Source of the DNA: Ignavibacteria bacterium
GTDB taxonomy: Bacteria; Bacteroidota; Ignavibacteria; Tepidaquicellales; OLB5
Direction: 5' to 3'
NCBI GenBank assembly: GCA_049516635.1
Contig: JBEKSX010000002.1
Coordinates: forward strand, 3,768-67,767
DNA length: 64,000 nt
The notes under the pieces were generated by a model that was not told the DNA's origin, searched no databases, and worked only from the letters and a program-made list of their open reading frames with translations. A program made the position numbers and the translations under genes. Shown piece by piece: positions 9,031-32,251 of this stretch; the stretch's first letter is position 1, and every line of letters begins with the position of its first letter.

Positions 9031-9547
9031 CAGATCTCCTTAAGGGTTTGAAAACGGCAAGTGCAATTATCGTGTAATAACAGAGCAGTGCTATTATCGG
9101 GACGCCGCTCAATGCACCGAGCCTGTTACCGAATATCCTTAATAGTTCATCGTGGTTTGGCGGATGGGAATAATACAGCAATATGAACTTGACGTCAAGG
9201 TAACAGGTGTAAGATTCCACCGGGACGAACATGAAGAATAATATTGCACTCATTATCAGCCACCCGTTCTCCCTGAATTTCAGCTTTGTGGTTTTGATGA
9301 ACCACAGAACACAGATAAAAACAAGGGTATAGCTGCTGATGATGACTATCGAGGAATATGCCAATAGCTGGAATAGTGTGTTCTCCCTGTCAGGCGGAAT
9401 CCCGGTCTTGAACTTGAACTGATCGTAGATGAGAAGCTCGTTGCCTATTATAGCCCTTATATTTATTCCGCCGAGCCAGAATATTGCAGCGATTATAAGA
9501 AGCGTTAGGGCAAATTTATTGGATCTTGATTGTGCGGTTTCATTCAT
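8996..9547 (-). CDS. hypothetical integral membrane protein
   Basis: The 183-aa ORF has about 4 hydrophobic helices. No diagnostic motif was seen. Confidence 0.45.
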   Translation of the reverse strand: MNETAQSRSNKFALTLLIIAAIFWLGGINIRAIIGNELLIYDQFKFKTGIPPDRENTLFQLLAYSSIVIISSYTLVFICVLWFIKTTKLKFRENGWLIMSAILFFMFVPVESYTCYLDVKFILLYYSHPPNHDELLRIFGNRLGALSGVPIIALLCYYTIIALAVFKPLRRSVDADAKEKKAD

Positions 9548-9700
9548 GTGTGTACAAATTATGAAAAAAGAATCAGTGATTCAATCCAAAGCTAAGGGAA
9601 GTATCCCACCAGACCTGGAGGCTAAATAATAATAAAACAAAACCTGGCGGGTTTCCTCAACCTGTCAGGTTTTTGTAAAAACATTTTTATAGCAGGCTTA

Positions 9701-10165
9701 TTAATGCAGAACAGTACCTTCCTGAATACTCTTCAGGTCGGTTTCACGCAGGTCAATACCGTACTCCAGAAAAGTTTTCAGGTTAGTAAGATAGAACGTC
9801 CATCCGTTGCTGCAGCCTAAGTGTGTAGCCGATTTATGTTCCTCTGTAATTGGAATATTATACTGACGCAGGTTCACAAGCGAACCCCGTTTATCTTTTT
9901 TGATCTCTACTTCACAGATACTTCCCGCAAAAGTAAAAATAAGCTTAGTCGGCTTGCGAATGTTCAATATCTGGCCGGAATCTTTATAACCGCCAAGCCA
10001 CGTCCATTCATAAGAGCCGTCTTTTTTCAAATGCATTTTAGCGTCCGAAACCAGCCATTTGGACATTAATTTCGGGTCGGTCCACATCCTGAATACTTTT
10101 TCGGCTGGTGCCGCAACAGCTACCCGTTGAGTAAACTGAGACCAATCATATTTTTTGCTAGGCAT
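9701..10165 (-). CDS. SRPBCC / Aha1-domain (activator of Hsp90 ATPase homolog 1-like) protein
   Basis: The 154-aa ORF has the pattern F...TDP....W and the W.GGY..SG.I....P...L.F.F architecture typical of AHSA1/SRPBCC proteins. Confidence 0.6.
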   Translation of the reverse strand: MPSKKYDWSQFTQRVAVAAPAEKVFRMWTDPKLMSKWLVSDAKMHLKKDGSYEWTWLGGYKDSGQILNIRKPTKLIFTFAGSICEVEIKKDKRGSLVNLRQYNIPITEEHKSATHLGCSNGWTFYLTNLKTFLEYGIDLRETDLKSIQEGTVLH

Positions 10166-10285
10166 CTTTCTCCCTTCGGATTAATCGAAATAATAAAATT
10201 TACTAAAATTATTTAATACTACAAATCTAACATAATTATTCCATAAGTAAATCACGGATAAAGGTGAATTAGAAAATAATACCTA

Positions 10286-10314
10286 TAAAAAAAGCCGAAC
10301 TGCAAAGTTCGGCT
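10286..10314 (-). terminator. intrinsic terminator downstream of 10345-10674
   Basis: The minus-strand hairpin agccgaac-tttgc-agttcggct is followed by a run of 7 T, 30 nt after the stop codon. Confidence 0.65.
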
Positions 10315-10344
10315 AAAAATACCCGATTGACGTGATATGTTTTT

Positions 10345-10674
10345 TTACTTCGTTTTTATGTTAGAGCTTACCTGTTGGGCTGCGGCAACAACATTATTTT
10401 CAGCTATTTCCGGCTGGTTCTGCTGTTCTTTTTTGGTCTTTTTCAGTATACCGTAAGGAATAATGACACAGTATCCCAGTACCAGTAATATGGGTGATAT
10501 TACGGTAGCAAGGGTTCCATCTACAGTATCTTCAGCCATGAGTATGTAACCGAGAACCAGTACAACTATGCCGATACCTATTATTATGTAATTTATCCTC
10601 TCAAAAGGAAAAGTAATTTCTTTTTTGGTTTTACCCTGTGTTTTTTTAACCTTTGATGCTGTCTTTGCTGCCAT
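10345..10674 (-). CDS. small membrane protein (DUF3098-like)
   Basis: The 109-aa ORF has a basic N-terminus, then F.F...NY.....G..V...GY.LM and a second TM helix. It resembles the FCB-group DUF3098 family by eye. Confidence 0.4.
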   Translation of the reverse strand: MAAKTASKVKKTQGKTKKEITFPFERINYIIIGIGIVVLVLGYILMAEDTVDGTLATVISPILLVLGYCVIIPYGILKKTKKEQQNQPEIAENNVVAAAQQVSSNIKTK

Positions 10675-10688
10675 TGTTTATTATATAT

Positions 10689-12062
10689 TTACTTTAAATT
10701 AGCAAGTTCATTGTAAAAAATCGAGGAAGTAATTATACCTCTTTGAAAATTATCCAGATCCATATGTTCATCGGGAGAATGCGAGTTTTCGTCGGGCAGA
10801 CCAAAACCGAGCAGAACGGCAGGCGCTTGAAGCTGTACCTGGAAAGTTTCTACTATGGGTATTGAACCGCCATTGCGTATGAATACAGGATCTTTACCGA
10901 ATGCCTGCTTAAGAGCTTTAAAGGCTGCCTTTATCCATTTGCTGTCCATGGGCGTTATTGCCGGTTTTCCGTGATGCAGACCTTTAACTTCTATCTTAAC
11001 CGTTTTCGGAGTAATTTTTTTTATGTAAGCTTCAAAAAGTTTTGCGATCTTTTCCGGTTCCTGATCGGGTACCAGACGCATACTTATTTTAGCATATGCT
11101 TTTGAAGGCAGTACGGTTTTTGCACCTTCACCTGTGAAGCCTCCCCATATGCCGTTGCAGTCGAGCGTAGGTCTTGACCACATTCGCTCTATTGTTGAGT
11201 ATCCCTGCTCACCGAACAGCTCTTCGACGCCAAGCCTTATCTTGAACGCTTTATCTTCGAACGGAAGCCTGGCTAGTTCTTTTCTCTCCATTTCACTGAG
11301 CACGCGGACGTCATCATAAAATCCGTCTATCAGTATTTTCCCATCCCTGTCCTTAAGCTTCGAGATTATATAGGAAAGTGCATTGATCGGGTTATCCACA
11401 GTACCACCGTAAGTTCCGGAATGAAGGTCATGGTTTGGACCCGTTACTTCTACCTGCATATAACACAAACCCCTTAACGCATAACAGATTGCCGGCATCT
11501 CATGGTCATACATGGCTGTATCGGAAATGACAACTACATCGGCTTTTAAAAGATCTTTATGGCTATCGATGAAATCTTCGAGATGTTCACTTCCAATTTC
11601 TTCTTCCCCTTCTACAATCATCTTTACATTCACCGGCAAAGACTTATTCATCTTCAGGTGAGCTTCGAGGGCTTCTATATGTATCAGCACCTGTCCCTTA
11701 TCATCGGCAGAACCGCGGGCAAAAATATTATTGCCTCTTATCTCAGGTTCAAAAGGCGGGGTTGTCCATAGCTCGATAGGATCAACCGGCTGAACATCAT
11801 AATGGCCATATATCAGAATTGTGGGTTTATCCTTTCCTGCATCAAGCCAATCGGAGTAGACGACGGGATGTCCTCCTGTGGGATATGCTTTAGCATTATG
11901 CATGCCGATGTTTTCAAAACGTTGTTTAATAAACTCCGCACATGCGGCAACATCACCTTTGTTTTCAGGATTGGTGCTTATACTCGGGAACCGCAGCAAT
12001 TCTTTCAGGTCTTCAAGATACCTGTTCCTGTTCGATTCGATAAACTTTAGGATTTCGTCCAT
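10689..12062 (-). CDS. M20-family dipeptidase
   Basis: The 457-aa ORF has the motifs GHYDVQP, RGS.DDKG and EGEEE.GS, and a C-terminal HSPDE typical of M20/ArgE/DapE-type dipeptidases. Confidence 0.85.
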   Translation of the reverse strand: MDEILKFIESNRNRYLEDLKELLRFPSISTNPENKGDVAACAEFIKQRFENIGMHNAKAYPTGGHPVVYSDWLDAGKDKPTILIYGHYDVQPVDPIELWTTPPFEPEIRGNNIFARGSADDKGQVLIHIEALEAHLKMNKSLPVNVKMIVEGEEEIGSEHLEDFIDSHKDLLKADVVVISDTAMYDHEMPAICYALRGLCYMQVEVTGPNHDLHSGTYGGTVDNPINALSYIISKLKDRDGKILIDGFYDDVRVLSEMERKELARLPFEDKAFKIRLGVEELFGEQGYSTIERMWSRPTLDCNGIWGGFTGEGAKTVLPSKAYAKISMRLVPDQEPEKIAKLFEAYIKKITPKTVKIEVKGLHHGKPAITPMDSKWIKAAFKALKQAFGKDPVFIRNGGSIPIVETFQVQLQAPAVLLGFGLPDENSHSPDEHMDLDNFQRGIITSSIFYNELANLK

Positions 12063-21376: not shown

Positions 21377-22117
21377 ATGTCTAAATCAAAAATTGAGTGG
21401 ACTGAAGTTACGTGGAACCCTGCTACGGGATGCAATAAGGTATCACCCGGCTGTAAATACTGCTATGCCGAGGTTTTCGCTAAGAGACTGCAGGGAATGG
21501 GAGTCAATAAATATGAGAACGGCTTTGAGTTAACTTTACAGCCCGATGTCCTGAATTTACCAAAAAGATGGCGGGGGAATAAAACTGTATTTGTTAACAG
21601 CATGAGCGATCTTTTTCACGAAAACATACCTTTCGAGTATATCAAAAAAGTATTCAATGTAATGCATGAGTGCCCGCAGCACACATTTCAGGTTCTTACC
21701 AAAAGATCAGAAAGATTGTCCAAAATGGCAAATAAACTGACCTGGACACCCAATATCTGGATGGGTGTTTCGGTCGAGAACGAAGACTACACATTTAGAA
21801 TTGACCAATTAAGGAAGATACCTTCTAAAATTAAATTCTTATCATTAGAACCGCTCCTGGGTCCTTTACCTGATTTGAATCTAAAAAACATCGACTGGGT
21901 AATAGTCGGAGGCGAGTCAGGCAAAAAAGCCAGACCCATGCGAAGTGAATGGGTGCTGGATATTCAAAAGCAGTGTGGAGCAAAGAAGGTACTTTTCTTC
22001 TTTAAACAATGGGGCGGAATGAACAAAAAACTTACCGGACGTGAATTAAATGGCAGAACCTATGATGATATGCCCAGAAGAGCAAAAAACGATATGGAAC
22101 TGTTTCAGAATATATAA
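21377..22117 (+). CDS. phage Gp37/Gp68 family (DUF5131) three-Cys-motif protein
   Basis: The 246-aa ORF has the N-terminus IEWTEVTWNPATGCNKVSPGCKYCYAE, a family hallmark with C19-x6-C26-x2-C29. Later motifs are VFVNSMSDLFHE and DWVIVGGESG. Confidence 0.85.
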   Translation: MSKSKIEWTEVTWNPATGCNKVSPGCKYCYAEVFAKRLQGMGVNKYENGFELTLQPDVLNLPKRWRGNKTVFVNSMSDLFHENIPFEYIKKVFNVMHECPQHTFQVLTKRSERLSKMANKLTWTPNIWMGVSVENEDYTFRIDQLRKIPSKIKFLSLEPLLGPLPDLNLKNIDWVIVGGESGKKARPMRSEWVLDIQKQCGAKKVLFFFKQWGGMNKKLTGRELNGRTYDDMPRRAKNDMELFQNI

Positions 22118-22911: not shown

Positions 22912-25900
22912 CTAGCTGCATCCGCTTGTCTCGCCGCACGTAGTGCACTTGAGACATGTACCGTTGCGTACCATCGTGAAGCTTCCGCAGGAAGAACAAA
23001 CATCGCCGGAATAACCTTTGAGCTTCGCTTCTTTTATCATCTCAATCTTATCCGATTGCGTCTTCACCTGCGGTGTCTGCGGGTAACCCGGCGGTATCAT
23101 TCTCAGCGGGTCGGGATCCGCCGGAACCTTCCGCGGGTCTTCTTCGATAATACGTTCGCTGTATATCTCCTCCTCATCGAAGTCCGCTTCCTTGTCGAGC
23201 TTGGAGATAGAATCGATGGGACTGGTATGCAGTTCGCTCTCCGATGCTATCTGTGCGAGGTCGGTCCTGCCGAGATATGTAACAGCGAGCTCACGGAAAA
23301 TATAATCTATTATCGATGTTGTCATCTTGATGTTCGGATTCCCGATGACGATACCGTTCGGCTCGAAACGTGTGAACACAAAAGCATCCACAAATTCCTC
23401 GAGCGGAACACCATGCTGGAGACCCAGCGAGATTGCGATCGCAAAACAGTTCATTAAGCTTCTGAATGCAGCGCCCTCGCGGTGCATATCGATGAATATT
23501 TCGCCTATTTGTCCGTTCTCATATTCGCCAGTGCGGAGGTAAACGGAATGGTTGCCTATCTTTGCTTTCTGAGTGTAGCCTCTCCGTCTGAACGGGAGTT
23601 TCCTCCGCTTTGCGATATACCGGTGGATTATCCTCTCGGCTATCCTGATGATATCGTTCGACTTGGAGAGCGGTTCGCTGTAATCGGAATCATCATTGCC
23701 GCCGTTCTCGCTCACGCTGTTAAGAGGCTGTGAAAGCTTTGAACCGTCACGGTAAAGCGCGTTCGCTTTCAGTCCCAGCGACCATGAGAGCATGTAGGCA
23801 CGCTTCATATCCTCAATTGATGCTTCGTTGGGAAGATTAATGGTCTTTGATATCGCGCCGGAGATGAACGGCTGCGCCGCCGCCATCAGTTTGATGTGCG
23901 CTTCTGCAGAGATGTATCTGGTCCCGGTTCTGCCGCATTTATTTGCACAGTCGAATATCGGGTAATGAAGCTCTTTAAGATGAGGTGCGCCTTCTATCGT
24001 CATTGTTCCGCAGATGTAATCGTTTGCTTCTTCTATCTGCTCTTTTGAAAATCCGATCGCCCTGAGCATGTTGAAATTGAAATCATCCAGCTGTTCCTCT
24101 TTGAAGCCGAGAACGTTATGGCAGAAATCCGAGCCCAGTGTCCACTTATTGAACGTGAAGTTTATATCGAAGACCGATGGGAGACTTTTCTCCACCAGGC
24201 TGATGACATCTTTCGTAAATCCTTTTTCGGCTAAGCTCTGTACGTTGATATGGGGACAGTTAGCAAGCGTACCGTGACCCTTTGTGTACTTGATAATATC
24301 ATTTATCTCCATTTCGGTATAGCCGAGCTTCTCAAGTGCGGGCGGAACAGATTCGTTGATTATCTTAAAGTATCCGCCGCCTGCAAGTTTTTTGAACTTC
24401 ACGAGAGCGAAATCGGGTTCCACACCGGTCGTATCGCAGTCCATCACGAGACCGATGGTGCCCGTAGGTGCTATCACGGTGACCTGTGCGTTCCTGTAAC
24501 CGTATTTTTCACCTAGCTGAAGAGCACGGTCGGCATCCTGTCTTGCGGCATTGAGAAGATCATCAGGGCAGAACTTTTTGTTTATGCCCATGGGCATTAT
24601 GGAAAGTCCCTCATATTCTTCGGAAGGCGAATTATAAGCGGCACGCCTGTGATTTCTTATGACGCGCAGCATACTGGATTCGTTCTCTTTGTACCTGGGG
24701 AAAGGACCAAGCTCCATTGCCATTTCCGCTGACGTTGCGTAAGCCCTCATGTGCATCATTGCTGTGAGAGCACCGGTGATTGCAAGCGCTTCATTTGAAT
24801 CATAGGGAATGCCTTGGAGCATAAGCAGAGCGCCGAGATTTGCGTAACCGAGACCGAGTGTCCTGTAATCATAAGAGAGCTTTGCTATCTTCCTGCTGGG
24901 GAACTGCGCCATGAGCACACTTATCTCCAGCACGATCGTCCACAGCCTTACGGCATGGCGGTACTTCTCCGTCTCGAAAACGTTTTTATCGAGGTCATAA
25001 AACTTTACCAGGTTGACGGATGCAAGGTTGCAGGCGGTATCATCCAGGAACATATATTCGGAGCACGGGTTAGATGCTTTTATCTCCCCGCCCTTCGGGC
25101 AGGTGTGCCACTCATTAATAGTGGTATGGAACTGCATGCCGGGGTCGGCACAGGACCAGGCGGAATATGCTATCTGGTCCCATAATTCGCGTGCTTTTAA
25201 GGTTTTGCTGGCAACCGGTTTGCGTCCTTCGAGCTTTGATTTGACAAGCTCCGTACGCCAGTAGAGGTTCCAGTCGCCGCCTGATGCGACCGCATTCATG
25301 AAATCGTTTGTTGCGCGGACACTGTTGTTGGAGTTTTGCCCGGATACCGTCACGTATGATTCTGAGTTCCAGTCCGTATCATAGACGGGAACATAAATTT
25401 CTTTAACGCCAAGCCTCGCGAGATGGATGACGCGCTCGATATAATTTTCGGGGATCATGCAACGGTGTGCATCGGCTATCGCTTTAGCAAGCTGTTTATT
25501 GCTCTTCCTGTCGAAAGGATCGTTCTCGGGATGAGAAGGTTCGCATGCGCGGATGATGTTATTGAGATGTATGTTTAGCATGCGTGAGCCTGCAACGAGG
25601 TCAGCTACTTTCTGCTCCTCGATAACTTTCCAGTTAATGTATTCTTCTATATCAGGGTGGTCGAGATCGAGCGTAACCATTTTTGCAGCTCTTCGTGTAG
25701 TGCCTCCGGATTTAATTGCACCGGCACTCCGATCACCGATCTTGAGAAACGACATTAATCCCGATGATTTTCCCCCGCCGCTGAGCGGTTCGTTTGTTCC
25801 GCGCAGGTTAGAAAAGTTCGTACCCGTACCAGAACCGTACTTAAATAAACGCGCTTCTCTAACCCAGAGGTCCATGATGCCGCCTTCGTTGACGAGATCA

Positions 25901-26517
25901 TCTGTAATTGACTGGATGAAACATGCATGAGGCTGAGGATGTGTGTACGCATCTTCCGATGCACGTACTTCACCGGTTTGGGGATCAGAGTAATAATGGC
26001 CCTGCGGCGGTCCGGTTATTCCGTACGCCCAATTGAGACCTGTATTAAACCATTGAGGTGAGTTAGGCGCAGCCGTCTGCATGGCAAGCATGTAGCAAAG
26101 CTCGTTATAAAAATTTCTTGCATCTGCTTCATTGTCAAAATACTGGTTCTTCCATCCCCAGTATGTCCAGCATCCTGCAAGACGATGGAAGACCTGTCTC
26201 GAGTCGGTCTCGGAAGTATATCTTTCTTCCGGCGAGACCTCGTTCATTTTTTCTCTATCCTCTTCCGAGCGGCTCAGCCAGTCAGGAACATTTTCTTCTT
26301 TAATTTTCTTAAGAAATTTAGGAACTCCGGCTTTGCGGAAATATTTTTGCGATATGATATCGGTAGCAACCTGTGACCATTGTCTCGGAACAATAATATC
26401 GATCATCTCAAATACGATCGAACCGTCGGGGTTTCTGATTACTGAAGTGCGTTTTACGAATTCTATGTTCCCAAAAGGATCTTTTCCTTCTTCAACTAAA
26501 AAACTTTTGATCTTCAT
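22912..26517 (-). CDS. nrdJ: adenosylcobalamin-dependent (class II) ribonucleotide reductase
   Basis: The 1201-aa ORF has the active-site region [22 protein letters not shown], a GGGTG finger-loop context and a C-terminal Cys-rich tail CSSCGS...CLKCTTCG typical of long NrdJ proteins. Confidence 0.9.
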
Positions 26518-26759
26518 CTCATAAAAACATTATAATGATTAGAAACTCATCAATTTAATATTAAAACTTAGTTAAAAAGTTTCACGAAGAAACTTTTTCT
26601 CCCGAACTTAATGATAAATAGAAACTTTCGATGTGCGGGATTTTTATCAAGGATGTAAGGAAATTTTAATTCTATACCTGCTGGATTCAAAATTAACACA
26701 ATACTTTTTGAAATGCAAATGGTGTTTTACATCAAATCAGGTCATTCTCAGCTACAACA

Positions 26760-26794
26760 TAAAAATATCCCGAAATTGAGAGAATTTCGGGATA
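26760..26794 (-). terminator. intrinsic terminator of the kamA-like operon
   Basis: The minus-strand 12-bp stem tatcccgaaatt/aatttcgggata has a 5-nt loop and is followed by TTTTT, 56 nt after the stop at 26850. Confidence 0.7.
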
Positions 26795-26849
26795 AAATTT
26801 ATTTATCTAAAAAATATTTTAGATAAAAATCATAAATTTATTTATGCAT

Positions 26850-27986
26850 TTACTCTTCCATGAGAACCGGGAGCTGTATCTTTTTCTGTTTCTTCTTCAT
26901 CGGTCTCGATTCGATGCTCTTTCCGTTCTTGAGCACCGGATGATCTTCCTGTACATCGGGATACTCGAACACTTCATTCCGGAAATTACGCAGAACGATC
27001 TTCTCTTTGGTCCTCGCAAGAACATATTCAGGAAGAAGAGGGATCTTTCCTCCGCCGCCGGGTGCATCTATTACGAAATACGGAATTGCGAGACCCGATA
27101 TGTGCCCTCTGAGCTTATCCATAATTTCCAACCCTACATCTATCGGAGTTCTGAAATGATTCGCTCCCTTTGTAAGATCGGCCTGATAAATATAATACGG
27201 TCTCACTCTCATCATGAGGAGTTTCTTCATAAGCTCTTTCATAATTTCGGGGTCGTCGTTAACACCTTTAAGAAGCACTGTCTGGCATCCCACGGGACAT
27301 CCTGCATCAACAAGCATCTCACATGCTTTTCTGCTCTCTTCGGTGATCTCCCACGGGTGATTGAAATGCGTGTTCACGAATATCGGGTGGTATTTCCTCA
27401 GCATTTCGCAAAGCTGGGGCGTGATCCTCTGGGGCAGTACGCAGGGCATCTTTGTGCCGAGCCTGATGATTTGTATATGGGGAATTGTTCTTAACCTCTT
27501 CAAAATTTTTTCGAGCATGGCATCTGTCAGCATCAGGGGGTCGCCGCCGGATAGTATAACGTCGTTCACTTCGGTGTGCTCTTCAAGATACCTGAAAGCA
27601 CTCTCAAGCTGTTTTAGGTTGATCTTGCTGGAGTCGCCTACCTTCCTCTTCCGCGTACAGAACCTGCAGTACAAACCGCACTGGCTGGTTGTAAGAAACA
27701 GCACGCGGTCCGGGTAGCGATGAGTGATGTTCGGGACAGGGCTCATGTCATCTTCATGAAGCGGGTCTTCGAGTGCATCCCAATCTTCAAGCTCCTTTTC
27801 ATCGGGAACGCACTGACGCCATATCGGATCGCCCGGCTGGCGTATGAGACTGAGATAGTAAGGATTTATCCTCGCCTGGAAGAAATCTTCCAATCGTTCG
27901 GCTACTTCCCTTTTAATGCCGAACTTATCAACCAAATGGTCAACGGAACTTACGCTTTCTCTTAACAGCTGCTGCCAAAGTTCCAT
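26850..27986 (-). CDS. KamA-family radical SAM aminomutase (lysine 2,3-aminomutase-like)
   Basis: The 378-aa ORF has CGLYCRFC (C103-x3-C107-x2-C110), SGGDP and VIDAPGGGGK (PLP Lys314). D270 (YQADL) and D307 (IDAP) sit where lysine-specific aminomutases carry the two Asp residues. Confidence 0.85.
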   Translation of the reverse strand: MELWQQLLRESVSSVDHLVDKFGIKREVAERLEDFFQARINPYYLSLIRQPGDPIWRQCVPDEKELEDWDALEDPLHEDDMSPVPNITHRYPDRVLFLTTSQCGLYCRFCTRKRKVGDSSKINLKQLESAFRYLEEHTEVNDVILSGGDPLMLTDAMLEKILKRLRTIPHIQIIRLGTKMPCVLPQRITPQLCEMLRKYHPIFVNTHFNHPWEITEESRKACEMLVDAGCPVGCQTVLLKGVNDDPEIMKELMKKLLMMRVRPYYIYQADLTKGANHFRTPIDVGLEIMDKLRGHISGLAIPYFVIDAPGGGGKIPLLPEYVLARTKEKIVLRNFRNEVFEYPDVQEDHPVLKNGKSIESRPMKKKQKKIQLPVLMEE

Positions 27987-28047
27987 AAAGTTTTATAACT
28001 CCTATATTGTTAAAAAATACCCCTGTAAGACGGGATTAATTAAAAAC

Positions 28048-28524
28048 TTATATATATTTGTGGTAGATGTAAAGATCATCTCCCTTCCTGTAAAATCCCT
28101 TTATAATAGTTTGAACTTTATAGCCGTTCTTTTCATAGAACTTTCTTTCGCCCGAATAATTTTCCAGGCCGCTCGTTTCTATCAGCACCAATCCTGCTTT
28201 GTTCTTTTTCAGATCATCCTCCATGAACTCAATCAATTTGCTTCCTATCCCCTTTCCATGAACTGCAGGATCAACCGCAATCCAGTAGAGATCATATGTG
28301 CTATCGGTCATCGGCCTTTTCCCGTAACAGATATATCCTGCAGCCTTACCGTCATCACCGTTCATATAAGAATAAATTGTATAGTCATCCTGTTTCTCAT
28401 CGTCCAGATAAATATCAATCAGCTCAAGCGCAATGTTAATCTCTTCATCATTAAAGTTCTTCGTATCGATCAACAACTGCTTAATTAAATCCCTATCTTC
28501 CTTAATAAGTTTCCTTATCATCAA
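28048..28524 (-). CDS. GNAT-family N-acetyltransferase
   Basis: The 158-aa ORF has the acetyl-CoA motif A, WIAVDPAVHGKGIGSKL, and a C-terminal FYEKNGY. Confidence 0.8.
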   Translation of the reverse strand: MMIRKLIKEDRDLIKQLLIDTKNFNDEEINIALELIDIYLDDEKQDDYTIYSYMNGDDGKAAGYICYGKRPMTDSTYDLYWIAVDPAVHGKGIGSKLIEFMEDDLKKNKAGLVLIETSGLENYSGERKFYEKNGYKVQTIIKGFYRKGDDLYIYHKYI

Positions 28525-28561
28525 TATTTATCGTTGAACAAATTTTTTATTTCAAACAATA

Positions 28562-29653
28562 TCAGACATACTCAGCAACTTTTTCAACATGCCATCTATT
28601 CAAAGCATACCTGATGATCTGCTGAATAAGATACTCATAATCCCATCCATGAGCTTTAGCGCTTCTGGTGAATCCCGTATCTTCCGGCACATCGGAAGCT
28701 ATATCGGGATTCGGATTCAGCTCGAGAACGTAAGGTACACCATCCTTATATCTCATATCAATGCGTGCATAATCGCATGCACCGAGCAGACGGTAAACTT
28801 TCTTAGCCGTCTCCTGAATTACTTTCACTTCTCTCGCTGTTAAATTTTTTGCAGGGCATATTGCTTTGGTCTTTGCGAACTCAACTGTTTTATACATCCA
28901 TTTCGAATTATAGCTTATTATCTTCGGTAATTCTTCCGGAAGCAATGAAAAATCAATTTCAGATATCGGGAAAGCTATCAAATTATCACCGTTACCCACA
29001 ACCGAAACGTTTATCTCTCTTCCGTCGATAAACTCTTCAACAAGTGCCGGCTGCTTATGTTCGTCAAGAACATATTCGATCCTCTTCTTCAGGTCTGCCC
29101 TGTTCGTTACGATCGATTCATTTGTAATACCGATGCTTGCATCTTCTCTCGAAGGTTTCACGATCATCGGAAATTTATTTCCGTTGATATGTAAAGTATC
29201 CGTACCGGTTGCAACGAAATGTTTCGCAGTCGGGACACCGTTCTGTTCAAGAATTTGTTTTACGAGCGGCTTGTTCAATGCAAGACCGAGAGTAAATGCC
29301 CGCGAACCCGTGTAAGGAATTTTCATCAGCTCATAAAGTGATGCAATGTTCATCTCCTGCGTTGGGTCTCCGTCAACGCTTTCGCAAAGGTTGAAAATGA
29401 CATCGGGCCGGTTCTCATTTAACTCATCAATAAGTTTATTAATATCAAGAGCGAAAGGAACAATCTTGATATTATGCTTCAAAAGCTGCAGTGCCCGCTC
29501 AATGGATCTCATTTCATCCAGCACACCGTACTCGCTCATATCAATTGCATGCGGTAGCTCATCAATATTCACTTTGGTCCTGTCATAAATAGGTTCAGCG
29601 GCATATTGAGTCGGATCGTTGAAAATAATTGATATGTTAAGTTTTTTACTCAT
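28562..29653 (-). CDS. ATP-grasp ligase, D-alanine--D-alanine ligase-like (paralog 1)
   Basis: The 363-aa ORF has PDVIFNLCE, IPYTGS, MIVKPSREDASIGI, VEEFIDGREINV and ARIDMR...VLELNPNP, the ATP-grasp/Ddl-family order. Confidence 0.8.
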   Translation of the reverse strand: MSKKLNISIIFNDPTQYAAEPIYDRTKVNIDELPHAIDMSEYGVLDEMRSIERALQLLKHNIKIVPFALDINKLIDELNENRPDVIFNLCESVDGDPTQEMNIASLYELMKIPYTGSRAFTLGLALNKPLVKQILEQNGVPTAKHFVATGTDTLHINGNKFPMIVKPSREDASIGITNESIVTNRADLKKRIEYVLDEHKQPALVEEFIDGREINVSVVGNGDNLIAFPISEIDFSLLPEELPKIISYNSKWMYKTVEFAKTKAICPAKNLTAREVKVIQETAKKVYRLLGACDYARIDMRYKDGVPYVLELNPNPDIASDVPEDTGFTRSAKAHGWDYEYLIQQIIRYALNRWHVEKVAEYV

Positions 29654-29654
29654 C

Positions 29655-30734
29655 TTATTTTATTTTATACCTTTGAATTGCCAGATTTAGCACAGTGTTA
29701 ATCAAATTGTCATACTCTATACCTGCGGCACGGGCAGCTTTTGGAAAACACGAATTATCGTCCGGATTCGGCAAAATCCCCGGTAACGGGTTCACCTCTA
29801 TTATATAGGGATTTTCATGGGAGTCACACCGGATATCGATCCGCGCCCAATCCTTTATTCTCAATACTTTATAAGCCTGCAGGCAAATATCTTCTATATT
29901 TTTCTTCAGCTTAGGACTTATTTTTGCGGGACAGGTAAAAATATCGAGCTTGTTCTCCCGGGTGTCAAAAAACCATTTTACTTCGTAAGAATATATTTTA
30001 TTAAATCCTTCCGGAACGCAATCCAGATTTATTTCCACTATTGGCAAAACCCTTGTATCGGAACCGTTTCCCAGCATTGCAACGGTGAATTCCCTGCCTT
30101 CCAGAAAATCCTCTATAATAGAGGGCTGACAGTAATCTTTCCATATCCTATCGACCTCGCGGTTGAGTTCATCCTTCGAATGTACAATACAAGTATTATA
30201 AATACCCTTCGATGAACCTTCATGGAGCGGCTTCACAAACCCAGGGAAATTAATCTTATACTGACCGTTAATCCTGCTGTCCGTGATAAAGAAGTTAGGT
30301 GTTGGAATATTATAGTAAGTAAGAATTTCTTTGCATCTTGATTTATCGTGGCAGATACCGATGGTTACCGGGTCACTCGCTGTGTAAGGAATATTAAGAA
30401 GCTCTAATATGGTAGGTAAATAAGATTCTCTTGCCGGACCGCCGTAGCCTTCAGCCAAATTGAAAACGATATCGGGTCTTTCGTTTCTTAATCTTTGATA
30501 TGCATTCTCATCCGCTTCGATGAGAACAACTTTATGACCTGCTTTTTCTAATGCAGAGCGAATTGCATCGATAGTCTCCCTATCATCCCACTCCGCATAT
30601 TTATCGGATAGACGTTCCGAATAATTCTTTACAAGATTATCATCAAAATATTTTTGAAGCTGGTTGTCCCGGGAAGTTTTTGAAACTTCAGCTTCAATTT
30701 CTTTTTTTATATTAAAAGTTATACCAACTTTCAT
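29655..30734 (-). CDS. ATP-grasp ligase, D-alanine--D-alanine ligase-like (paralog 2)
   Basis: The 359-aa ORF has PDIVFNLAE, IPYTAS, GFVKPLHEGSSKGI, IEDFLEGREFTV and ARIDIR...IIEVNPLP. Its stop is 1 nt from the start of paralog 1. Confidence 0.8.
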   Translation of the reverse strand: MKVGITFNIKKEIEAEVSKTSRDNQLQKYFDDNLVKNYSERLSDKYAEWDDRETIDAIRSALEKAGHKVVLIEADENAYQRLRNERPDIVFNLAEGYGGPARESYLPTILELLNIPYTASDPVTIGICHDKSRCKEILTYYNIPTPNFFITDSRINGQYKINFPGFVKPLHEGSSKGIYNTCIVHSKDELNREVDRIWKDYCQPSIIEDFLEGREFTVAMLGNGSDTRVLPIVEINLDCVPEGFNKIYSYEVKWFFDTRENKLDIFTCPAKISPKLKKNIEDICLQAYKVLRIKDWARIDIRCDSHENPYIIEVNPLPGILPNPDDNSCFPKAARAAGIEYDNLINTVLNLAIQRYKIK

Positions 30735-31180
30735 AAAATATTTTATGCAAATATAACATTATACACATCATTGTCAAGATGTTTTACGTTTTTTTTAAAA
30801 TTTATTTTTAAAAATATTTTTAGAGTTTTTTCATTAATATCTCTTTATCTGTACCAAAATATTTTTTTATGAAAAATATTTTTCTATTAAGGTTAGACAA
30901 TCGAAAATGAAAAGAGATTAAAAATATTTTTTACAAAAAGATTTATAATTTATAGTATAACTTCTTCAGTCATATTTAAATTATTCCAATAAAAATAATT
31001 TAAAATACTTTATGAAAAACATAACCAATATACCTTAGACTTTTCTTCTTTCTTCTAATAAAAAGATAAACCGGACTATCCTCTTCATACCTTTTACCTT
31101 TATCTAATACTACGAACTAAATTGAATCTTCAAATGCAATAAAGTATTTTCGTAATCACACAAAGGTAACAAAATCAGAT

Positions 31181-32251
31181 ATGTTCGACAGGTTAGAAAA
31201 AGTCAAAGAAAGATATAACGAGATAGCGGGACTTCTTAATAAACCGGATGCAATGTCCGACCAGAAGGAGTATATCAAATTATCAAAGGAATATTCTGAA
31301 CTTACAGAGATAATAAACACATACGATAATTATAACAAGATTAAGCAGGATCTCGAAAACACCAAACAGCTTATCTACGATACGAACGATTCCGAGATGA
31401 AAGAGCTTGCAAAAGCGGAGGAACTTGAACTGTCTGAAAAACTTCATCTTATCGGAGAAACCTTAAAAGAGCTCCTCGTACCTAAGGACCCCAACGATGC
31501 TAAGAATGCAATACTCGAAATAAGGGCCGGCACGGGCGGTGAGGAGGCAGCGCTCTTTGCCGCAGACCTTTACCGGATGTACACAAGGTATGCCGAGAGA
31601 GTGGGATGGAAAATGGATACCATCACATTCAACGAATCATCGGGTTTGGGCGGATTAAAGGAGGTCATAGTTAACGTCACCGGGAAAAACGTATACGGCA
31701 CCCTAAAATACGAAAGCGGCGTACACAGGGTACAAAGAGTGCCTGTAACAGAAGCCCAGGGGAGGGTTCACACTTCCGCTGCATCGGTAGCTGTATTGCC
31801 TGAAGCAGAGGAGGTTGATGTTGAAATCAATCCAACTGATCTAAAAATTGATGTATACCGCTCCGGCGGTGCAGGCGGACAAAATGTTAACAAGGTGGAA
31901 ACAGCGATACGCATTACGCACATACCCACCGGTGTGGTTGTTACCTGCCAGGATGAACGCTCACAGCTGAAGAATAAGCAAAAGGCAATGAAGATACTGC
32001 GTTCAAGACTGCTTGAAGCAGAAATAGAAAAACAGGATAAAGAGGTATCCGATAAACGTAAATTGATGGTAAGAAGCGGTGACAGAAGCGATAAGATAAG
32101 AACATACAACTTCCCACAGAACAGAGTTACAGATCATCGAATTGGACTGACTCTATATAACCTTTCTCAAATTATTGATGGTGACATCGACGAGCTTATC
32201 GAGAAACTAAAGATAGCGGATAGAGCCGAGAAGCTGTCTGAAAGTAATTAA
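31181..32251 (+). CDS. prfA: peptide chain release factor 1
   Basis: The 356-aa ORF has GGQNVNKVETA (the GGQ motif) and the RF1-type tripeptide region PVTEAQGRVHTS. Confidence 0.95.
   Translation: MFDRLEKVKERYNEIAGLLNKPDAMSDQKEYIKLSKEYSELTEIINTYDNYNKIKQDLENTKQLIYDTNDSEMKELAKAEELELSEKLHLIGETLKELLVPKDPNDAKNAILEIRAGTGGEEAALFAADLYRMYTRYAERVGWKMDTITFNESSGLGGLKEVIVNVTGKNVYGTLKYESGVHRVQRVPVTEAQGRVHTSAASVAVLPEAEEVDVEINPTDLKIDVYRSGGAGGQNVNKVETAIRITHIPTGVVVTCQDERSQLKNKQKAMKILRSRLLEAEIEKQDKEVSDKRKLMVRSGDRSDKIRTYNFPQNRVTDHRIGLTLYNLSQIIDGDIDELIEKLKIADRAEKLSESN

What the first reader, a model, noticed from the sequence alone, without database searches (positions are those of the whole stretch)
26850..30734. 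Operon of a KamA-type aminomutase, a small GNAT and two paralogous Ddl-like ATP-grasp ligases, as a candidate beta-lysine peptide, osmolyte or protein-modification pathway
Seen in the sequence:
- Four co-directional genes have gaps of 1, 37 and 61 nt. A strong terminator closes the operon at 26760-26794, and a 446-bp AT-rich upstream region precedes it.
- The aminomutase has the radical-SAM CX3CX2C motif and the PLP-Lys motif APGGGGK.
- It retains Asp at YQADL (D270) and IDAP (D307).

Established knowledge, as I recall it:
- The equivalent Asp293 and Asp330 of Clostridium lysine 2,3-aminomutase bind the lysine epsilon-ammonium group.
- Those residues are replaced by Lys and Asn in glutamate 2,3-aminomutase, so a basic substrate (lysine) is favoured here.
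- KamA plus a GNAT (AblA/AblB) makes the osmolyte N-epsilon-acetyl-beta-lysine in methanogens.

Unusual features: the GNAT is only 158 aa, and two tandem ATP-grasp amide-bond ligases are part of the operon.

Inference: the operon could make a ribosome-independent beta-lysine-containing di- or oligopeptide, or an acetylated derivative. Alternatively it could perform an ATP-grasp-mediated beta-lysyl modification of a protein, by analogy with the EpmA/EpmB modification of EF-P or the RimK modification of ribosomal protein S6. I know of no characterised pathway with this exact gene set.
Basis: partly seen in the sequence, partly recalled or inferred. Interest (0 to 1): 0.7.

Follow-up and report, generated by a model that had tools for sequence, protein, structure and literature searches.

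The report
Conserved beta-lysine peptide-building gene cassette
This Ignavibacteria operon belongs to a widespread, unstudied four-gene cassette in anaerobic bacteria and archaea that most likely turns lysine into beta-lysine, joins it into a small peptide-like molecule and caps it with an acetyl group, giving a metabolite nobody has yet identified.

Summary
Four co-directional minus-strand genes (AG1, AG2, GNAT, KamA) have gaps of 1, 37 and 61 nt, a strong terminator and a 446-bp AT-rich leader. KamA is about 51% identical to Clostridium lysine 2,3-aminomutase and keeps every lysine-, PLP- and cluster-binding residue.

The two ATP-grasp proteins are not ordinary D-Ala-D-Ala ligases. They keep all catalytic residues, fail every Ddl model cut-off and have remodelled substrate pockets.

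The cassette is conserved in about 80 Ignavibacteria genomes and, as KamA-AG1-AG2-GNAT, in Desulfovibrio, Woeseia and 80 metagenome contigs. It also occurs with fused genes in Methanocellales, Thermoplasmatota and DPANN archaea.

Gene fusions form a chain: KamA~AG1~AG2~GNAT~acetylpolyamine-type deacetylase. That chain suggests the pathway order.

I found no efp, carrier protein, precursor peptide or riboswitch. The ligases sit in the small-molecule Ddl/L-amino-acid-ligase clade, far from RimK.

Best reading: a non-ribosomal pathway to an N-acetylated beta-lysine di- or tripeptide-like solute. The product and its role (osmolyte or polyamine-like) are unknown. No paper in the searchable library describes it.

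The parts
30750..30777 (-). Best promoter-like site of the operon: TTGACA, 16-nt spacer, TATATT with an upstream TG. The -10 region reads TATATTTG, which also fits the TAnnTTTG motif of Bacteroidetes-type promoters as I recall it.
   Evidence: 11 of 12 matches, the best in the region; the total number of such sites in the region is at chance level. Sequence read. Function not shown.
30645..30930 (.). Cluster of six exact copies of the 10-bp palindrome AAAATATTTT (at 30645, 30735, 30811, 30856, 30873, 30921) spanning the promoter and the first codons of AG1. Candidate operator array for an unknown regulator.
   Evidence: 9 copies in the window against 0.70 expected; local Markov-1 control gives mean 0.07, maximum 2 in 5000 simulations; 44% of AG1-upstream regions in 73 related loci carry at least one copy, against 8% of AT-matched control tiles.
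29655..30734 (-). AG1: Ddl-family ATP-grasp ligase, 359 aa. This is the ligase type that is fused or adjacent to KamA in other lineages. Inferred to perform the first amide ligation on beta-lysine.
   Evidence: (best Ddl model 187.7 bits, below the 243 cut-off).
28562..29653 (-). AG2: paralogous Ddl-family ATP-grasp ligase, 363 aa, 34% identical to AG1. This is the ligase type that is fused to GNAT domains in other lineages. Inferred to perform the second ligation.
   Evidence: (135.4 bits, below 243).
28048..28524 (-). Small GNAT N-acetyltransferase (157/158 aa), of the same family as the uncharacterised PDB entry 2R7H. Inferred to N-acetylate the ligase product.
   Evidence: AblB model 16 bits against a 205 cut-off; RimI 46.5 against 86.4; 2R7H, E 1.3e-29.
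28019..28036 (-). Weak 5-bp hairpin followed by a U-run inside the 61-nt GNAT-KamA gap. Possibly a partial terminator or attenuator. Significance unknown.
   Evidence: terminator-like site; the whole 61-nt gap folds at -8.5 kcal/mol, which includes this hairpin and a second one.
26850..27986 (-). KamA-family radical-SAM/PLP aminomutase, 378 aa, predicted L-lysine 2,3-aminomutase. It is shorter than Clostridium LAM (416 aa): the alignment to 2A5H ends at about residue 344 (LAM 367), and the rest is a Lys-rich tail.
   Evidence: AblA model 464.7 bits against a 525.4 cut-off; KamA subfamily 314.9 against 199.2, passed; 50.6% identity to 2A5H residues 20-367.
26811..26820 (.). A further copy of the AAAATATTTT palindrome between the KamA stop codon and the terminator.
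26766..26794 (-). Intrinsic terminator closing the operon: 12-bp stem, 5-nt loop, U-run. It is symmetric enough to score on both strands.
   Evidence: (dG -14.7 kcal/mol).

Best explanation
The operon encodes a self-contained, ribosome-independent pathway that makes a small N-acetylated beta-lysine-containing amide, a di- or tripeptide-like molecule.

Proposed steps:
1. KamA converts L-lysine to beta-lysine. This is strongly inferred from residue conservation.
2. AG1, the ligase that evolution repeatedly fuses to KamA, uses ATP to form the first amide bond involving beta-lysine. By analogy with Ddl and the negamycin pathway, it probably activates the beta-lysine carboxylate as an acyl phosphate and joins it to an amino-acid amine.
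3. AG2 adds a second amide bond.
4. The GNAT, which other lineages fuse to AG2, acetylates a free amine of the product. That amine is most plausibly the flexible epsilon-amino group, because the deacetylase that accompanies the cassette elsewhere is of the acetylpolyamine-amidohydrolase type.

The co-substrates are unknown; they could be further beta-lysine or common amino acids.

The product most likely stays in the cytoplasm as a charge-balanced solute, that is a compatible solute or nitrogen-rich pool. This would be analogous to N-epsilon-acetyl-beta-lysine and to the dipeptide osmolyte NAGGN.

Shown here: gene content, residue conservation, synteny, fusions and family placement. Inferred: every chemical step, the order of steps, the site of acetylation and the physiological role.
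For: KamA acts on lysine:
- 50.6% identical to crystallised LAM.
- D293, D330, R134, K337 and the Cys triad are invariant in 65 Ignavibacteria and 8 distant cassette-linked KamAs.
- The best NCBIfam model is lysine 2,3-aminomutase.

Both ligases are active but are not Ddl:
- All ATP/Mg and catalytic residues are kept.
- Pocket positions are remodelled in family-invariant ways: H63 to E in both; E68 to R and G252 to D in AG1; Y216 to W in both (invariant in AG2, 83 of 88 in AG1); G276 to D and H280 to D in AG2.
- The added acidic residues fit an ammonium-rich substrate.
- Both fall below all Ddl cut-offs.

The genes work together:
- AG1-AG2-GNAT-KamA is present in essentially all of the 80 Ignavibacteria loci whose contig reaches far enough, while the flanks vary.
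- KamA-AG1-AG2-GNAT occurs in Desulfovibrio mangrovi, Oleidesulfovibrio and metagenome contigs, and Woeseia carries KamA, AG1, an AG2 fragment, HDAC and GNAT. In the metagenome set KamA is present in 49/51 loci, AG2 in 61/63 and GNAT in 47/53.
- Fused versions occur in Methanocellales, Woesearchaeota, a Deltaproteobacteria MAG and Spirochaetales.

The fusion chain gives the order:
- KamA is fused only to AG1; AG1-AG2 fusions always run in that order (17 representatives); two unrelated GNAT subtypes are fused only to AG2; HDAC is fused to the GNAT.

The substrate is a small molecule, not a protein:
- The AG1 profile hits Ddl/Van at 1e-48 and L-amino-acid ligase BL00235 at 2e-17, but CphA only at 1e-5 and RimK at 4e-4.
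- No conserved small ORF and no efp.
- The linked deacetylase is closest to acetylpolyamine amidohydrolases, 6PHR at 9e-70.

Precedents:
- Ngg both N-acetylates and peptide-bonds glutamine to make the osmolyte NAGGN (PMC8070244).
- The negamycin cluster co-localises beta-lysine formation with an ATP-grasp enzyme (bioRxiv 10.1101/2025.05.27.656397).

Weak hints of an osmotic role:
- MscL, Na+/H+ and Na+/Ca2+ exchanger genes lie directly upstream in Woesearchaeota.
- A Na+/H+ antiporter lies nearby in Woeseia.
Against: - No product has been observed. All chemistry is inferred from homology and genomic context.
- KamA scores below the curated cut-off of the AblA equivalog (464.7 against 525.4), so it is a distinct subfamily. 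Its substrate or stereochemistry could differ.
- No known riboswitch and no osmolyte transporter is associated with the operon in the window or in Ignavibacteria.
- The ion-channel neighbours are seen in only two lineages and could be coincidental.
- Some lineages lack the GNAT (Woesearchaeota, the Deltaproteobacteria MAG, Spirochaetales), so acetylation is not universal. An unacetylated product would be cationic, which fits a compatible solute poorly.
- A linear chain of fusions may reflect physical complex architecture rather than reaction order.
- My assignment of DdlB His63 and its neighbours to the first D-Ala subsite is from memory, not from a structure examined here.
Confidence: 0.55

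Rival explanations
1. The enzymes are the same, but the product is a cationic beta-lysine oligomer or polyamine surrogate. AG1, AG2 and, in some lineages, a third ligase link beta-lysines head-to-side-chain, as in the beta-lysine chain of streptothricin. Reversible acetylation by the GNAT and the acetylpolyamine-type deacetylase switches its charge and activity, as SpeG and APAH do for polyamines.
For: - The only dedicated precursor enzyme in the cassette is KamA. No other amino-acid-supplying gene is conserved.
- The number of ligases varies from 1 to 3, as expected for stepwise chain extension.
- Both ligases gained invariant acidic pocket residues.
- The linked deacetylase is APAH-like, and HDAC-GNAT fusions exist.
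- The Methanocellales GNAT shows weak similarity to spermidine N1-acetyltransferase.
- GNAT-less versions exist, in which the product would stay cationic.
Against: - In Ignavibacteria the GNAT is always present and no deacetylase lies in the window or in any of the 80 loci. The end product there is probably acetylated, not switchable.
- HDAC is present in only 7 of 36 assessable metagenome loci.
- AG1 keeps Ser281 and Arg255, which in Ddl hold the carboxylate of the incoming amino acid (as I recall). That fits an alpha- or beta-amino-acid nucleophile at least as well as an epsilon-amine.
Confidence: 0.15
2. Protein modification: AG1 and AG2 attach beta-lysine to a carboxylate or amine of a specific protein. 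The target could be a translation factor or ribosomal protein, and the chemistry would resemble RimK, LysX or EpmA.
For: - ATP-grasp enzymes of other clades do modify protein C-termini (RimK, LysX, TTL; established knowledge).
- Beta-lysine is used to modify EF-P in some bacteria (PMC2821294).
- The cassette is vertically conserved like a housekeeping function, including in small DPANN genomes.
Against: - No efp in the window or in any of about 180 loci, whereas epmB genes cluster mainly with efp (PMC2821294).
- KamA scores 237.9 on the EpmB model against a cut-off of 369.3.
- The cassette occurs in Archaea, which as I recall lack EF-P.
- The ligases are Ddl/Lal-clade, with RimK at E 4e-4 and LysX absent from the top 60.
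- No RimK Pfam hit for the window proteins.
- No conserved small carrier-like ORF and no conserved protein-coding neighbour.
- The linked deacetylase is of the small-molecule APAH type.
Confidence: 0.08
3. A specialised bioactive metabolite: a beta-lysine-containing antibiotic or toxin, with the GNAT acting as a self-resistance or pro-drug acetyltransferase and the deacetylase as its activator. Streptothricin and negamycin pathways use this logic.
For: - Beta-lysine is a building block of several antibiotics (established knowledge).
- The negamycin cluster combines beta-lysine formation with an ATP-grasp enzyme.
- Acetylation followed by deacetylation is a common self-protection scheme.
Against: - The cassette is near-universal and syntenic within Ignavibacteria and present in many unrelated anaerobes and genome-reduced DPANN archaea. 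That is unlike the patchy distribution of antibiotic clusters.
- No exporter, tailoring enzyme or resistance target gene is conserved nearby.
- There are no defence-system matches beyond a trivial radical-SAM hit.
Confidence: 0.07
4. A plain AblA/AblB-type pathway: KamA plus the GNAT make N-epsilon-acetyl-beta-lysine, and the two ligases serve an unrelated purpose, merely sharing the operon.
For: - KamA's best model is AblA.
- A GNAT is present.
- As I recall, N-epsilon-acetyl-beta-lysine is known in the related green sulfur bacteria.
Against: - The GNAT is not AblB-like: 16 bits against a cut-off of 205, and 158 aa against a model length of 266.
- KamA is physically fused to AG1 in many lineages, and GNATs are fused to AG2. 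The ligases are therefore integral to the pathway.
- Several lineages have KamA plus ligases and no GNAT.
Confidence: 0.05
5. The two ATP-grasp genes are ordinary D-Ala-D-Ala ligases for peptidoglycan synthesis.
For: - Pfam Dala_Dala_lig_C domain.
- Public annotation calls them D-alanine-D-alanine ligase.
- No other ddl is present in this 64-kb window.
Against: - Both score far below every Ddl cut-off.
- Pocket residues H63, Y216 and L282 (both ligases), E68 (AG1) and S150, G276 (AG2) are replaced.
- The genes always travel with KamA, not with mur/fts genes.
- Orthologues occur in Thermoplasmatota and DPANN archaea. As I recall, these groups do not make peptidoglycan.
Confidence: 0.01

Closest known systems
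AblA/AblB pathway to the compatible solute N-epsilon-acetyl-beta-lysine (methanogens, some bacteria)
   Same: A lysine 2,3-aminomutase of the LAM/AblA type (best NCBIfam model; all lysine-binding residues kept) is encoded together with a GNAT acetyltransferase. The likely outcome is an acetylated beta-lysine derivative.
   Different: - Two or more ATP-grasp ligases are integral parts of the cassette, as fusions to both KamA and GNAT show.
- The GNAT is not AblB (16 bits against 205; 158 aa against a 266-position model).
- KamA falls below the AblA equivalog cut-off.
- Some lineages have no GNAT at all.
Ngg/AsnO pathway to the osmolyte dipeptide N-acetylglutaminylglutamine amide (NAGGN)
   Same: Non-ribosomal synthesis of a small N-acetylated peptide, combining an N-acetyltransferase activity with peptide-bond formation (PMC8070244). 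Relatives of the cassette even fuse the ligase and GNAT into one protein, as I recall is the case in Ngg.
   Different: - The building block is a beta-amino acid made by a dedicated radical-SAM mutase.
- There are two separate Ddl-clade ligases.
- There is no AsnO-type amidotransferase.
- Homology to Ngg was not tested, because no Ngg sequence was available. That Ngg's ligase half is an ATP-grasp domain is my recollection of Sagot et al. 2010, which I could not read.
D-Ala-D-Ala ligase (Ddl/Van) and L-amino-acid ligases such as BL00235
   Same: Same fold and clade. All ATP-, Mg- and phosphoryl-transfer residues are conserved. The presumed mechanism is the same acyl-phosphate route joining two small amino acids.
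   Different: - Below all Ddl family cut-offs.
- The substrate pocket is remodelled with extra acidic and basic residues.
- An N-terminal extension is present.
- The genomic partner is KamA rather than cell-wall genes.
- The family occurs in archaea, including Thermoplasmatota and DPANN.
Negamycin biosynthesis (beta-lysine derivative joined through an ATP-grasp-type amide-forming enzyme)
   Same: Beta-lysine formation and an ATP-grasp superfamily enzyme are co-localised in one cluster (bioRxiv 10.1101/2025.05.27.656397). This is a precedent for ATP-grasp chemistry on a beta-lysine-type acid.
   Different: - Negamycin is an actinomycete antibiotic whose cluster also has hydroxylase, N-methylase and hydrazine-forming enzymes.
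- None of those accompany this cassette.
- This cassette is broadly and vertically distributed.
EpmA/EpmB beta-lysylation of EF-P
   Same: Uses a KamA-family aminomutase to supply beta-lysine.
   Different: - KamA here is not EpmB-like (237.9 against a 369.3 cut-off).
- The transfer enzyme there is a LysRS paralogue, not an ATP-grasp enzyme.
- No efp linkage.
- The cassette is present in archaea.
Polyamine acetylation and deacetylation (SpeG-type GNAT with acetylpolyamine amidohydrolase)
   Same: In part of the family the cassette carries, or fuses, a GNAT and an APAH-like deacetylase. This suggests reversible acetylation of a primary alkylamine on a small molecule.
   Different: - The amine would be on a beta-lysine amide, not a classical polyamine.
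- The deacetylase is absent from the window and from all 80 Ignavibacteria loci.

Membership tests
Lysine 2,3-aminomutase (LAM/AblA, KamA family) | Radical-SAM CX3CX2C cluster motif and PLP-binding lysine | tested here: met
   C103/C107/C110 and K314 align with C125/C129/C132 and K337 of 2A5H. Both are invariant in 73 cassette-linked KamAs.
Lysine 2,3-aminomutase (LAM/AblA, KamA family) | Lysine-binding residues Asp293 and Asp330 (epsilon-ammonium) and Arg134 (carboxylate) | tested here: met
   D270, D307 and R112 in the window protein, invariant across Ignavibacteria, Desulfovibrio, Woeseia and the archaeal fusions. The functional roles of these residues are from established literature as I recall it.
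Lysine 2,3-aminomutase (LAM/AblA, KamA family) | Score above the curated equivalog cut-off (TIGR03820) or the subfamily cut-off (TIGR00238) | tested here: inconclusive
   TIGR00238 KamA subfamily is passed (314.9 against 199.2). The TIGR03820 AblA equivalog is the best hit but below its cut-off (464.7 against 525.4). The glutamate, arginine and EpmB models score lower and are also below cut-off. The G20 orthologue behaves the same way.
Lysine 2,3-aminomutase (LAM/AblA, KamA family) | Enzymatic conversion of L-lysine to beta-lysine | not testable with these tools
   Needs an anaerobic enzyme assay.
AblA/AblB N-epsilon-acetyl-beta-lysine system | AblB-type beta-lysine N-acetyltransferase (TIGR03827, 266-position model) | tested here: not met
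   The GNAT scores 16.1 bits against a cut-off of 205.1, matching only 28 residues. Its family is that of PDB 2R7H.
AblA/AblB N-epsilon-acetyl-beta-lysine system | Two-gene ablA-ablB operon induced by salt | tested here: not met
   The operon has four genes, with two ligases placed ahead of the GNAT and KamA. Salt induction cannot be tested here.
D-alanine-D-alanine ligase (Ddl) | Score above the curated Ddl model cut-offs | tested here: not met
   AG1 scores 187.7 and AG2 135.4 bits against the 243 cut-off of the most permissive Ddl subfamily model. All other Ddl and Van models score far lower.
D-alanine-D-alanine ligase (Ddl) | ATP-grasp catalytic residues (DdlB K97, K144, E180, E187, K215, R255, D257, E270, N272) | tested here: met
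   Conserved in 88 AG1 and 78 AG2 sequences, apart from E270 to D in 3 AG1 and 2 AG2 sequences.
D-alanine-D-alanine ligase (Ddl) | D-Ala pocket residues (DdlB H63, S150, Y216, G276, S281, L282) | tested here: not met
   H63 to E and Y216 to W in both. L282 to C in AG1 and to G in AG2. S150 to A, G276 to D and S281 to T in AG2. Further invariant charged substitutions are listed.
D-alanine-D-alanine ligase (Ddl) | Association with peptidoglycan synthesis | tested here: not met
   The genes are always next to KamA. Orthologues occur in Thermoplasmatota, Methanocellales and DPANN archaea.
EpmA/EpmB EF-P beta-lysylation | EpmB-type aminomutase (TIGR03821) | tested here: not met
   237.9 bits against a cut-off of 369.3.
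EpmA/EpmB EF-P beta-lysylation | Clustering with efp and an EpmA (LysRS-like) gene | tested here: not met
   tblastn with E. coli EF-P finds nothing in the window or in any of about 180 related loci. No LysRS-like gene is among the recurrent neighbours. EpmA itself was not searched by sequence.
RimK/LysX-type protein- or carrier-modifying ATP-grasp ligases | Membership of the RimK clade | tested here: not met
   No RimK Pfam hit for the window proteins at E 0.01 or better. The AG1 profile hits RimK at 4e-4, against 1e-48 for Ddl.
RimK/LysX-type protein- or carrier-modifying ATP-grasp ligases | Adjacent substrate protein (S6, or a LysW-like carrier) | tested here: not met
   The intergenic gaps of 1, 37 and 61 nt leave no room. 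Only low-complexity ORFs flank the operon. Small ORFs near distant cassettes are unrelated to each other.
Ngg-type N-acetyl-dipeptide osmolyte synthesis (NAGGN) | GNAT plus peptide-bond-forming ligase acting on one molecule | tested here: met
   GNAT and ligase are adjacent genes here. In relatives they are fused as AG2-GNAT, with two different GNAT subtypes. This shows an analogy of design. Homology to Ngg was not tested.
Ngg-type N-acetyl-dipeptide osmolyte synthesis (NAGGN) | AsnO amidotransferase partner and osmotic induction | tested here: not met
   No asparagine-synthase-like gene is in the cassette. Induction cannot be tested here.

The most novel reading that the evidence does not exclude
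The cassette makes a previously unknown class of primary metabolite: short beta-lysine-based oligo-amides assembled by dedicated beta-amino-acid ATP-grasp ligases and capped by acetylation. In some lineages the cap is reversible through an acetylpolyamine-type deacetylase. Anaerobic bacteria and archaea, including genome-reduced DPANN, would use these molecules as a protease-resistant compatible solute or polyamine surrogate. The related double-ligase plus beta-aminopeptidase (S58) gene pairs would then be a second synthesis-and-breakdown system for natural beta- or D-peptides. That would give beta-aminopeptidases the natural substrates that, as far as I recall, have not been identified.
Probability: 0.3. 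Interest if true: 0.8.

Novelty: new variant of a known kind. Interest (0 to 1): 0.64.

Why it matters
- **A hidden metabolite.** If the model is right, a whole clade of genes annotated as "D-alanine-D-alanine ligase" (over 1,000 clusters at 50% identity) is mis-annotated. At least the KamA-linked members would build beta-lysine peptides instead. The metabolite would be unrecognised yet common in anaerobic sediments, sludge and groundwater, in both bacteria and archaea.
- **New enzymes.** It would add ATP-grasp ligases that accept a beta-amino acid. Such enzymes are attractive biocatalysts for protease-resistant beta-peptides.
- **A context for an orphan structure.** PDB 2R7H, currently unexplained, would gain a biological role.
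- **A new stress-adaptation system.** It could reveal a new compatible solute or polyamine-like system, with a clear experimental route through cultured Desulfovibrio and Ignavibacterium strains.
- **What it is not.** The component enzyme families are all known, so this is a new combination, not a new principle.

Tried and rejected
- **Riboswitch or leader RNA.** An Rfam scan of 26400-31400 at E up to 5 gave only chance-level hits.
- **Anti-phage defence.** PADLOC gave only a trivial 21-bit radical-SAM hit to viperin.
- **A genuine ddl or an HDAC elsewhere in the window.** None found by tblastn.
- **Extra conserved partner genes in Ignavibacteria.** Only clade-specific synteny was found: ECF sigma and membrane proteins downstream, HdeD-like and RidA-like genes upstream, RF1 and RNR in the nearest relatives.
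- **Extra partners in the proteobacterial-type set.** Pit/PhoU-like genes, Fpg, a sigma-54 activator and a sensor kinase each occur in 25% of loci or fewer.
- **Carrier protein or precursor peptide.** No credible small ORF. One candidate in L095 looks like a fragment of a restriction-enzyme gene.
- **efp linkage.** None.
- **Literature.** No paper in the library describes KamA plus ATP-grasp cassettes. The Desulfovibrio sigma-54 regulome paper and the G20 transposon-library paper do not mention these genes. Iyer et al. 2009 (amidoligases) and Sagot et al. 2010 (NAGGN) could not be read. A prior in-silico description in Iyer et al. therefore cannot be excluded.
- **Metagenome scan with a nine-phylum AG1 alignment.** It failed for lack of a conserved stretch and was rerun with four closer sequences.
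- **Homology search with the window AG1.** It was saturated by close Ignavibacteria relatives and said nothing about wider distribution.
- **Structure prediction.** Not used, because the tool returns no coordinates, so it could not test pocket geometry. Sequence and profile searches had already placed the folds.

Full report
**1. Observation.**

The region holds four co-directional minus-strand ORFs. In transcription order they are:
- AG1, 30734..29655, 359 aa
- AG2, 29653..28562, 363 aa
- a GNAT, 28524..28048, 158 aa from TTG, or 157 aa from the ATG that public gene calls use
- a KamA-family protein, 27986..26850, 378 aa

The gaps are 1, 37 and 61 nt. A 12-bp hairpin with a U-run at 26766-26794 (dG -14.7 kcal/mol) closes the unit. 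Upstream lies a 446-bp region of 22-25% GC, shared with the divergently transcribed prfA. The best promoter-like site, TTGACA-16-TATATT, ends 16 nt before the AG1 start codon. Pfam confirms Radical_SAM + LAM_C, a GNAT, and two Dala_Dala_lig_C ATP-grasp proteins.

**2. The aminomutase.**

Aligned to the crystallised Clostridium subterminale lysine 2,3-aminomutase (2A5H), the protein is 50.6% identical over LAM residues 20-367. It keeps the cluster cysteines (C103/C107/C110), the PLP lysine (K314), the carboxylate-binding arginine (R112 = R134) and both aspartates said to hold the lysine epsilon-ammonium (D270 = D293, D307 = D330). These residues are invariant in 65 Ignavibacteria orthologues and in eight cassette-linked KamAs from Desulfovibrio, Woeseia, a Deltaproteobacteria MAG, Spirochaetales, Methanocellales and Woesearchaeota.

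Among curated NCBIfam models the lysine enzyme (AblA) scores best, at 464.7 bits, but below its 525.4 cut-off. The glutamate (418), arginine (344) and EpmB (238) models score lower, and only the general KamA subfamily model is passed. I conclude it is a distinct LAM-like subfamily that very probably makes beta-lysine. Activity and stereochemistry are untested.

**3. The two ligases are not Ddl.**

AG1 and AG2 are 34% identical. Their only close solved relatives are Ddl/Van ligases, at 25-30% identity. They fail every Ddl model: 187.7 and 135.4 bits against 243.

I mapped 88 AG1 and 78 AG2 sequences onto E. coli DdlB, whose recalled sequence I verified as identical to 2DLN/1IOV. Every ATP-, Mg- and phosphoryl-transfer residue is kept, apart from a few conservative E270-to-D changes, and so is Glu15. 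Pocket positions, however, are replaced in near-invariant, family-specific ways:
- Both ligases: His63 to Glu, Tyr216 to Trp and Met259 to Arg.
- AG1: Glu68 to Arg, Gly252 to Asp and Leu282 to Cys.
- AG2: Ser150 to Ala, Gly276 to Asp, His280 to Asp and Leu282 to Gly.

Both are therefore predicted to be active ligases with new specificities. The gained acidic residues would suit an ammonium-rich substrate. That last point is an inference and depends on my recollection of which DdlB residues line the substrate sites.

A profile of diverse AG1 sequences ranks solved structures as follows: Ddl/Van (1e-48 to 1e-14), then the L-amino-acid ligase BL00235 (2e-17), PurK/PurD (1e-8), glutathione synthase (7e-7), cyanophycin synthase (1e-5) and RimK (4e-4). 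LysX is not in the top 60.

**4. Conservation and distribution.**

The window comes from an Ignavibacteria genome. In 80 species-level Ignavibacteria loci the order AG1-AG2-GNAT-KamA is kept wherever the contig reaches far enough, while the flanking genes change.

The GNAT matches the uncharacterised structural-genomics entry 2R7H at E 1e-29. Following that family led to cultured Desulfovibrio mangrovi and to a contig carrying a 99%-identical copy of the 2R7H protein, which I attribute to Oleidesulfovibrio. Both carry a sigma-54 activator followed by KamA-AG1-AG2-GNAT. It also led to Woeseia.

A metagenome scan gave 80 more loci of this type. Among loci with enough sequence to judge, KamA was present in 49/51, AG2 in 61/63, a GNAT in 47/53 and an HDAC-type deacetylase in 7/36. 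A search of 1.8 billion cluster representatives found 1,150 relatives of AG1 at E 1e-30 or better. KamA-AG1 fusion proteins occur in Thermoplasmatota, Methanocellales, Woesearchaeota, Nanoarchaeota, Spirochaetales and Deltaproteobacteria. Neighbourhoods there are:
- KamA-AG1 + AG2 + GNAT in Methanocellales
- KamA-AG1 + AG2 in Woesearchaeota
- KamA-AG1 + AG1' + AG2 in a Deltaproteobacteria MAG
- KamA-AG1 alone in Spirochaetales

AG1 and AG2 are separate orthologous lineages across all these groups.

**5. Fusions order the pathway.**

I classified ligase domains in 150 representatives and in the fetched loci.
- KamA is fused only to AG1, in both orientations.
- AG1-AG2 fusions (17 representatives) always run in that order.
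- GNAT domains of two unrelated subtypes (Acetyltransf_1/7 and Acetyltransf_3) are fused only to AG2.
- The deacetylase is fused to a GNAT.

The pairwise fusions form a chain, KamA~AG1~AG2~GNAT~HDAC, identical to the gene order in the Desulfovibrio-type cassettes. I read this as the reaction order: lysine to beta-lysine, first ligation, second ligation, acetylation, optional deacetylation. The chain could instead reflect how the proteins assemble into a complex.

**6. Small molecule or protein?**

Several results point to a small molecule:
- No efp is present in the window or in about 180 related sequences. EpmB genes, by contrast, typically cluster with efp (PMC2821294).
- The cassette occurs in archaea, which as I recall have no EF-P.
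- No conserved small ORF could serve as a carrier or precursor.
- The cassette-linked deacetylase is closest to acetylpolyamine amidohydrolases (6PHR at 9e-70; 3Q9B; 3MEN). Those enzymes act on small N-acetyl alkylamines, so the acetyl group plausibly sits on the flexible epsilon-amine of beta-lysine.

Two precedents exist. Ngg both N-acetylates and peptide-bonds glutamine to make the osmolyte NAGGN (PMC8070244). The negamycin cluster combines beta-lysine formation with an ATP-grasp enzyme.

**7. Physiological role.**

This is the weakest part. Evidence for an osmotic role is only contextual: MscL, Na+/H+ and Na+/Ca2+ exchanger and CorA genes lie directly upstream in Woesearchaeota, and a Na+/H+ antiporter lies nearby in Woeseia. 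No riboswitch and no transporter is linked.

GNAT-less versions would yield a cationic product. The GNAT-deacetylase pairs recall polyamine homeostasis. I therefore keep a polyamine-like or oligo-beta-lysine reading as the main rival. An antibiotic role is unlikely, given the vertical, near-universal conservation within Ignavibacteria, the presence in genome-reduced DPANN archaea, and the absence of exporters or tailoring genes.

**8. Regulation.**

The promoter region carries six exact copies of the palindrome AAAATATTTT within 30645-30930, and a seventh lies after the KamA stop codon. The window holds 9 copies against 0.7 expected, and a local composition model expects 0.07 in this region. 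Across 73 related loci, 44% carry the motif upstream of AG1, against 8% of AT-matched control tiles. It is a candidate operator for an unknown regulator. In Desulfovibrio-type cassettes a sigma-54 activator takes the equivalent position.

**9. Novelty and verdict.**

The full-text searches that paired aminomutase or beta-lysine with ATP-grasp, and those for Ignavibacterium, Desulfovibrio and the Dde locus tags, found no description of this cassette. The library lacks most subscription papers, including the 2009 amidoligase survey that might mention it. Public annotation calls the ligases Ddl and the mutase "KamA family".

All component families are known and the combination is new. I rate it a new variant of a known kind, of moderately high interest.

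Noticed in passing
window 30645-30930 and 26811-26820: Seven of the window's nine exact copies of the palindrome AAAATATTTT flank this operon: six in the promoter and 5' end, one after the KamA stop codon. The motif is also enriched upstream of AG1 in related Ignavibacteria (44% of loci against 8% of AT-matched controls). Probably an operator array. The regulator is unknown.
   Followed up: partly
L180:322-3509; L182:7001-10432 (same arrangement in L183): A sister system without KamA. Double ATP-grasp fusions (a divergent N-terminal ligase plus an AG1-type ligase) are each followed, once with a 4-nt overlap, by a Peptidase_S58 gene. That peptidase's closest solved relatives are a D-aminopeptidase (2DRH), the beta-peptidyl aminopeptidase BapA (3N2W) and DmpA (1B65). 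This suggests a make-and-break pair for peptides with beta- or D-amino-acid N-termini.
   Followed up: partly
L097:8629-10386; L099:6505-8486; L181:2541-3929; L123, L131, L134, L140, L144, L146, L156, L159, L165: Outside Ignavibacteria the cassette is often followed by an HDAC-fold deacetylase, sometimes fused to a GNAT. The Woeseia copy has an extra N-terminal region of about 170 residues with no match in the PDB search, and neither that copy nor the D. mangrovi fusion hit any NCBIfam model.
   Followed up: partly
window 30750-30757: The -10 element of the best promoter-like site reads TATATTTG. As I recall, this matches the TAnnTTTG -7 motif of Bacteroidetes-type promoters, which fits Ignavibacteria belonging to the same superphylum.
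   Followed up: no
window 28019-28036: A weak 5-bp hairpin with a U-run sits in the 61-nt gap between the GNAT and KamA. It might partially uncouple KamA expression from the ligases.
   Followed up: no
window 26850-26960 (C-terminus of KamA): KamA is shorter than LAM (378 against 416 aa). Its alignment to 2A5H ends at about residue 344, and it finishes in a Lys-rich tail (KKKQKKIQLPVLMEE). It therefore appears to lack most of the C-terminal region that, according to PMC2821294, forms the multimerisation domain in LAM. Desulfovibrio orthologues instead carry 70-110 extra N-terminal residues.
   Followed up: no
L089/L090:2030-5684: In a Woesearchaeota genome the KamA-AG1 and AG2 genes lie directly downstream of MscL, Na+/H+ exchanger, Na+/Ca2+ exchanger and CorA genes. 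This is a cluster of ion and osmotic homeostasis functions in a genome-reduced archaeon.
   Followed up: no
L025:~6990-11007 compared with window 22912-26517: The class II ribonucleotide reductase downstream of the operon is 1201 aa in the window. In relative L025 the corresponding ORF is about 1340 aa, and its sequence diverges right after the conserved PQPHAC motif. This looks like an intein-type insertion at the active-site cysteine. In L009 the tblastn match is split in two.
   Followed up: no
window 26844-27494, 27361-27717, 27916-28488 (+ strand): Long ORFs on the + strand overlap the operon (216, 118 and 190 aa). They are antisense to well-supported genes, are absent from public gene calls of identical contigs, and are most likely not genes.
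   Followed up: partly
window 21377-22117: By matching gene order and length (246 aa) to the public gene calls on contig L001, the ORF at 21377-22117 corresponds to a gene hit by DUF5131 and, weakly, GP88. I recall these as phage-related families. It sits next to two unannotated ORFs a few kb from the operon, and could be a prophage remnant.
   Followed up: no
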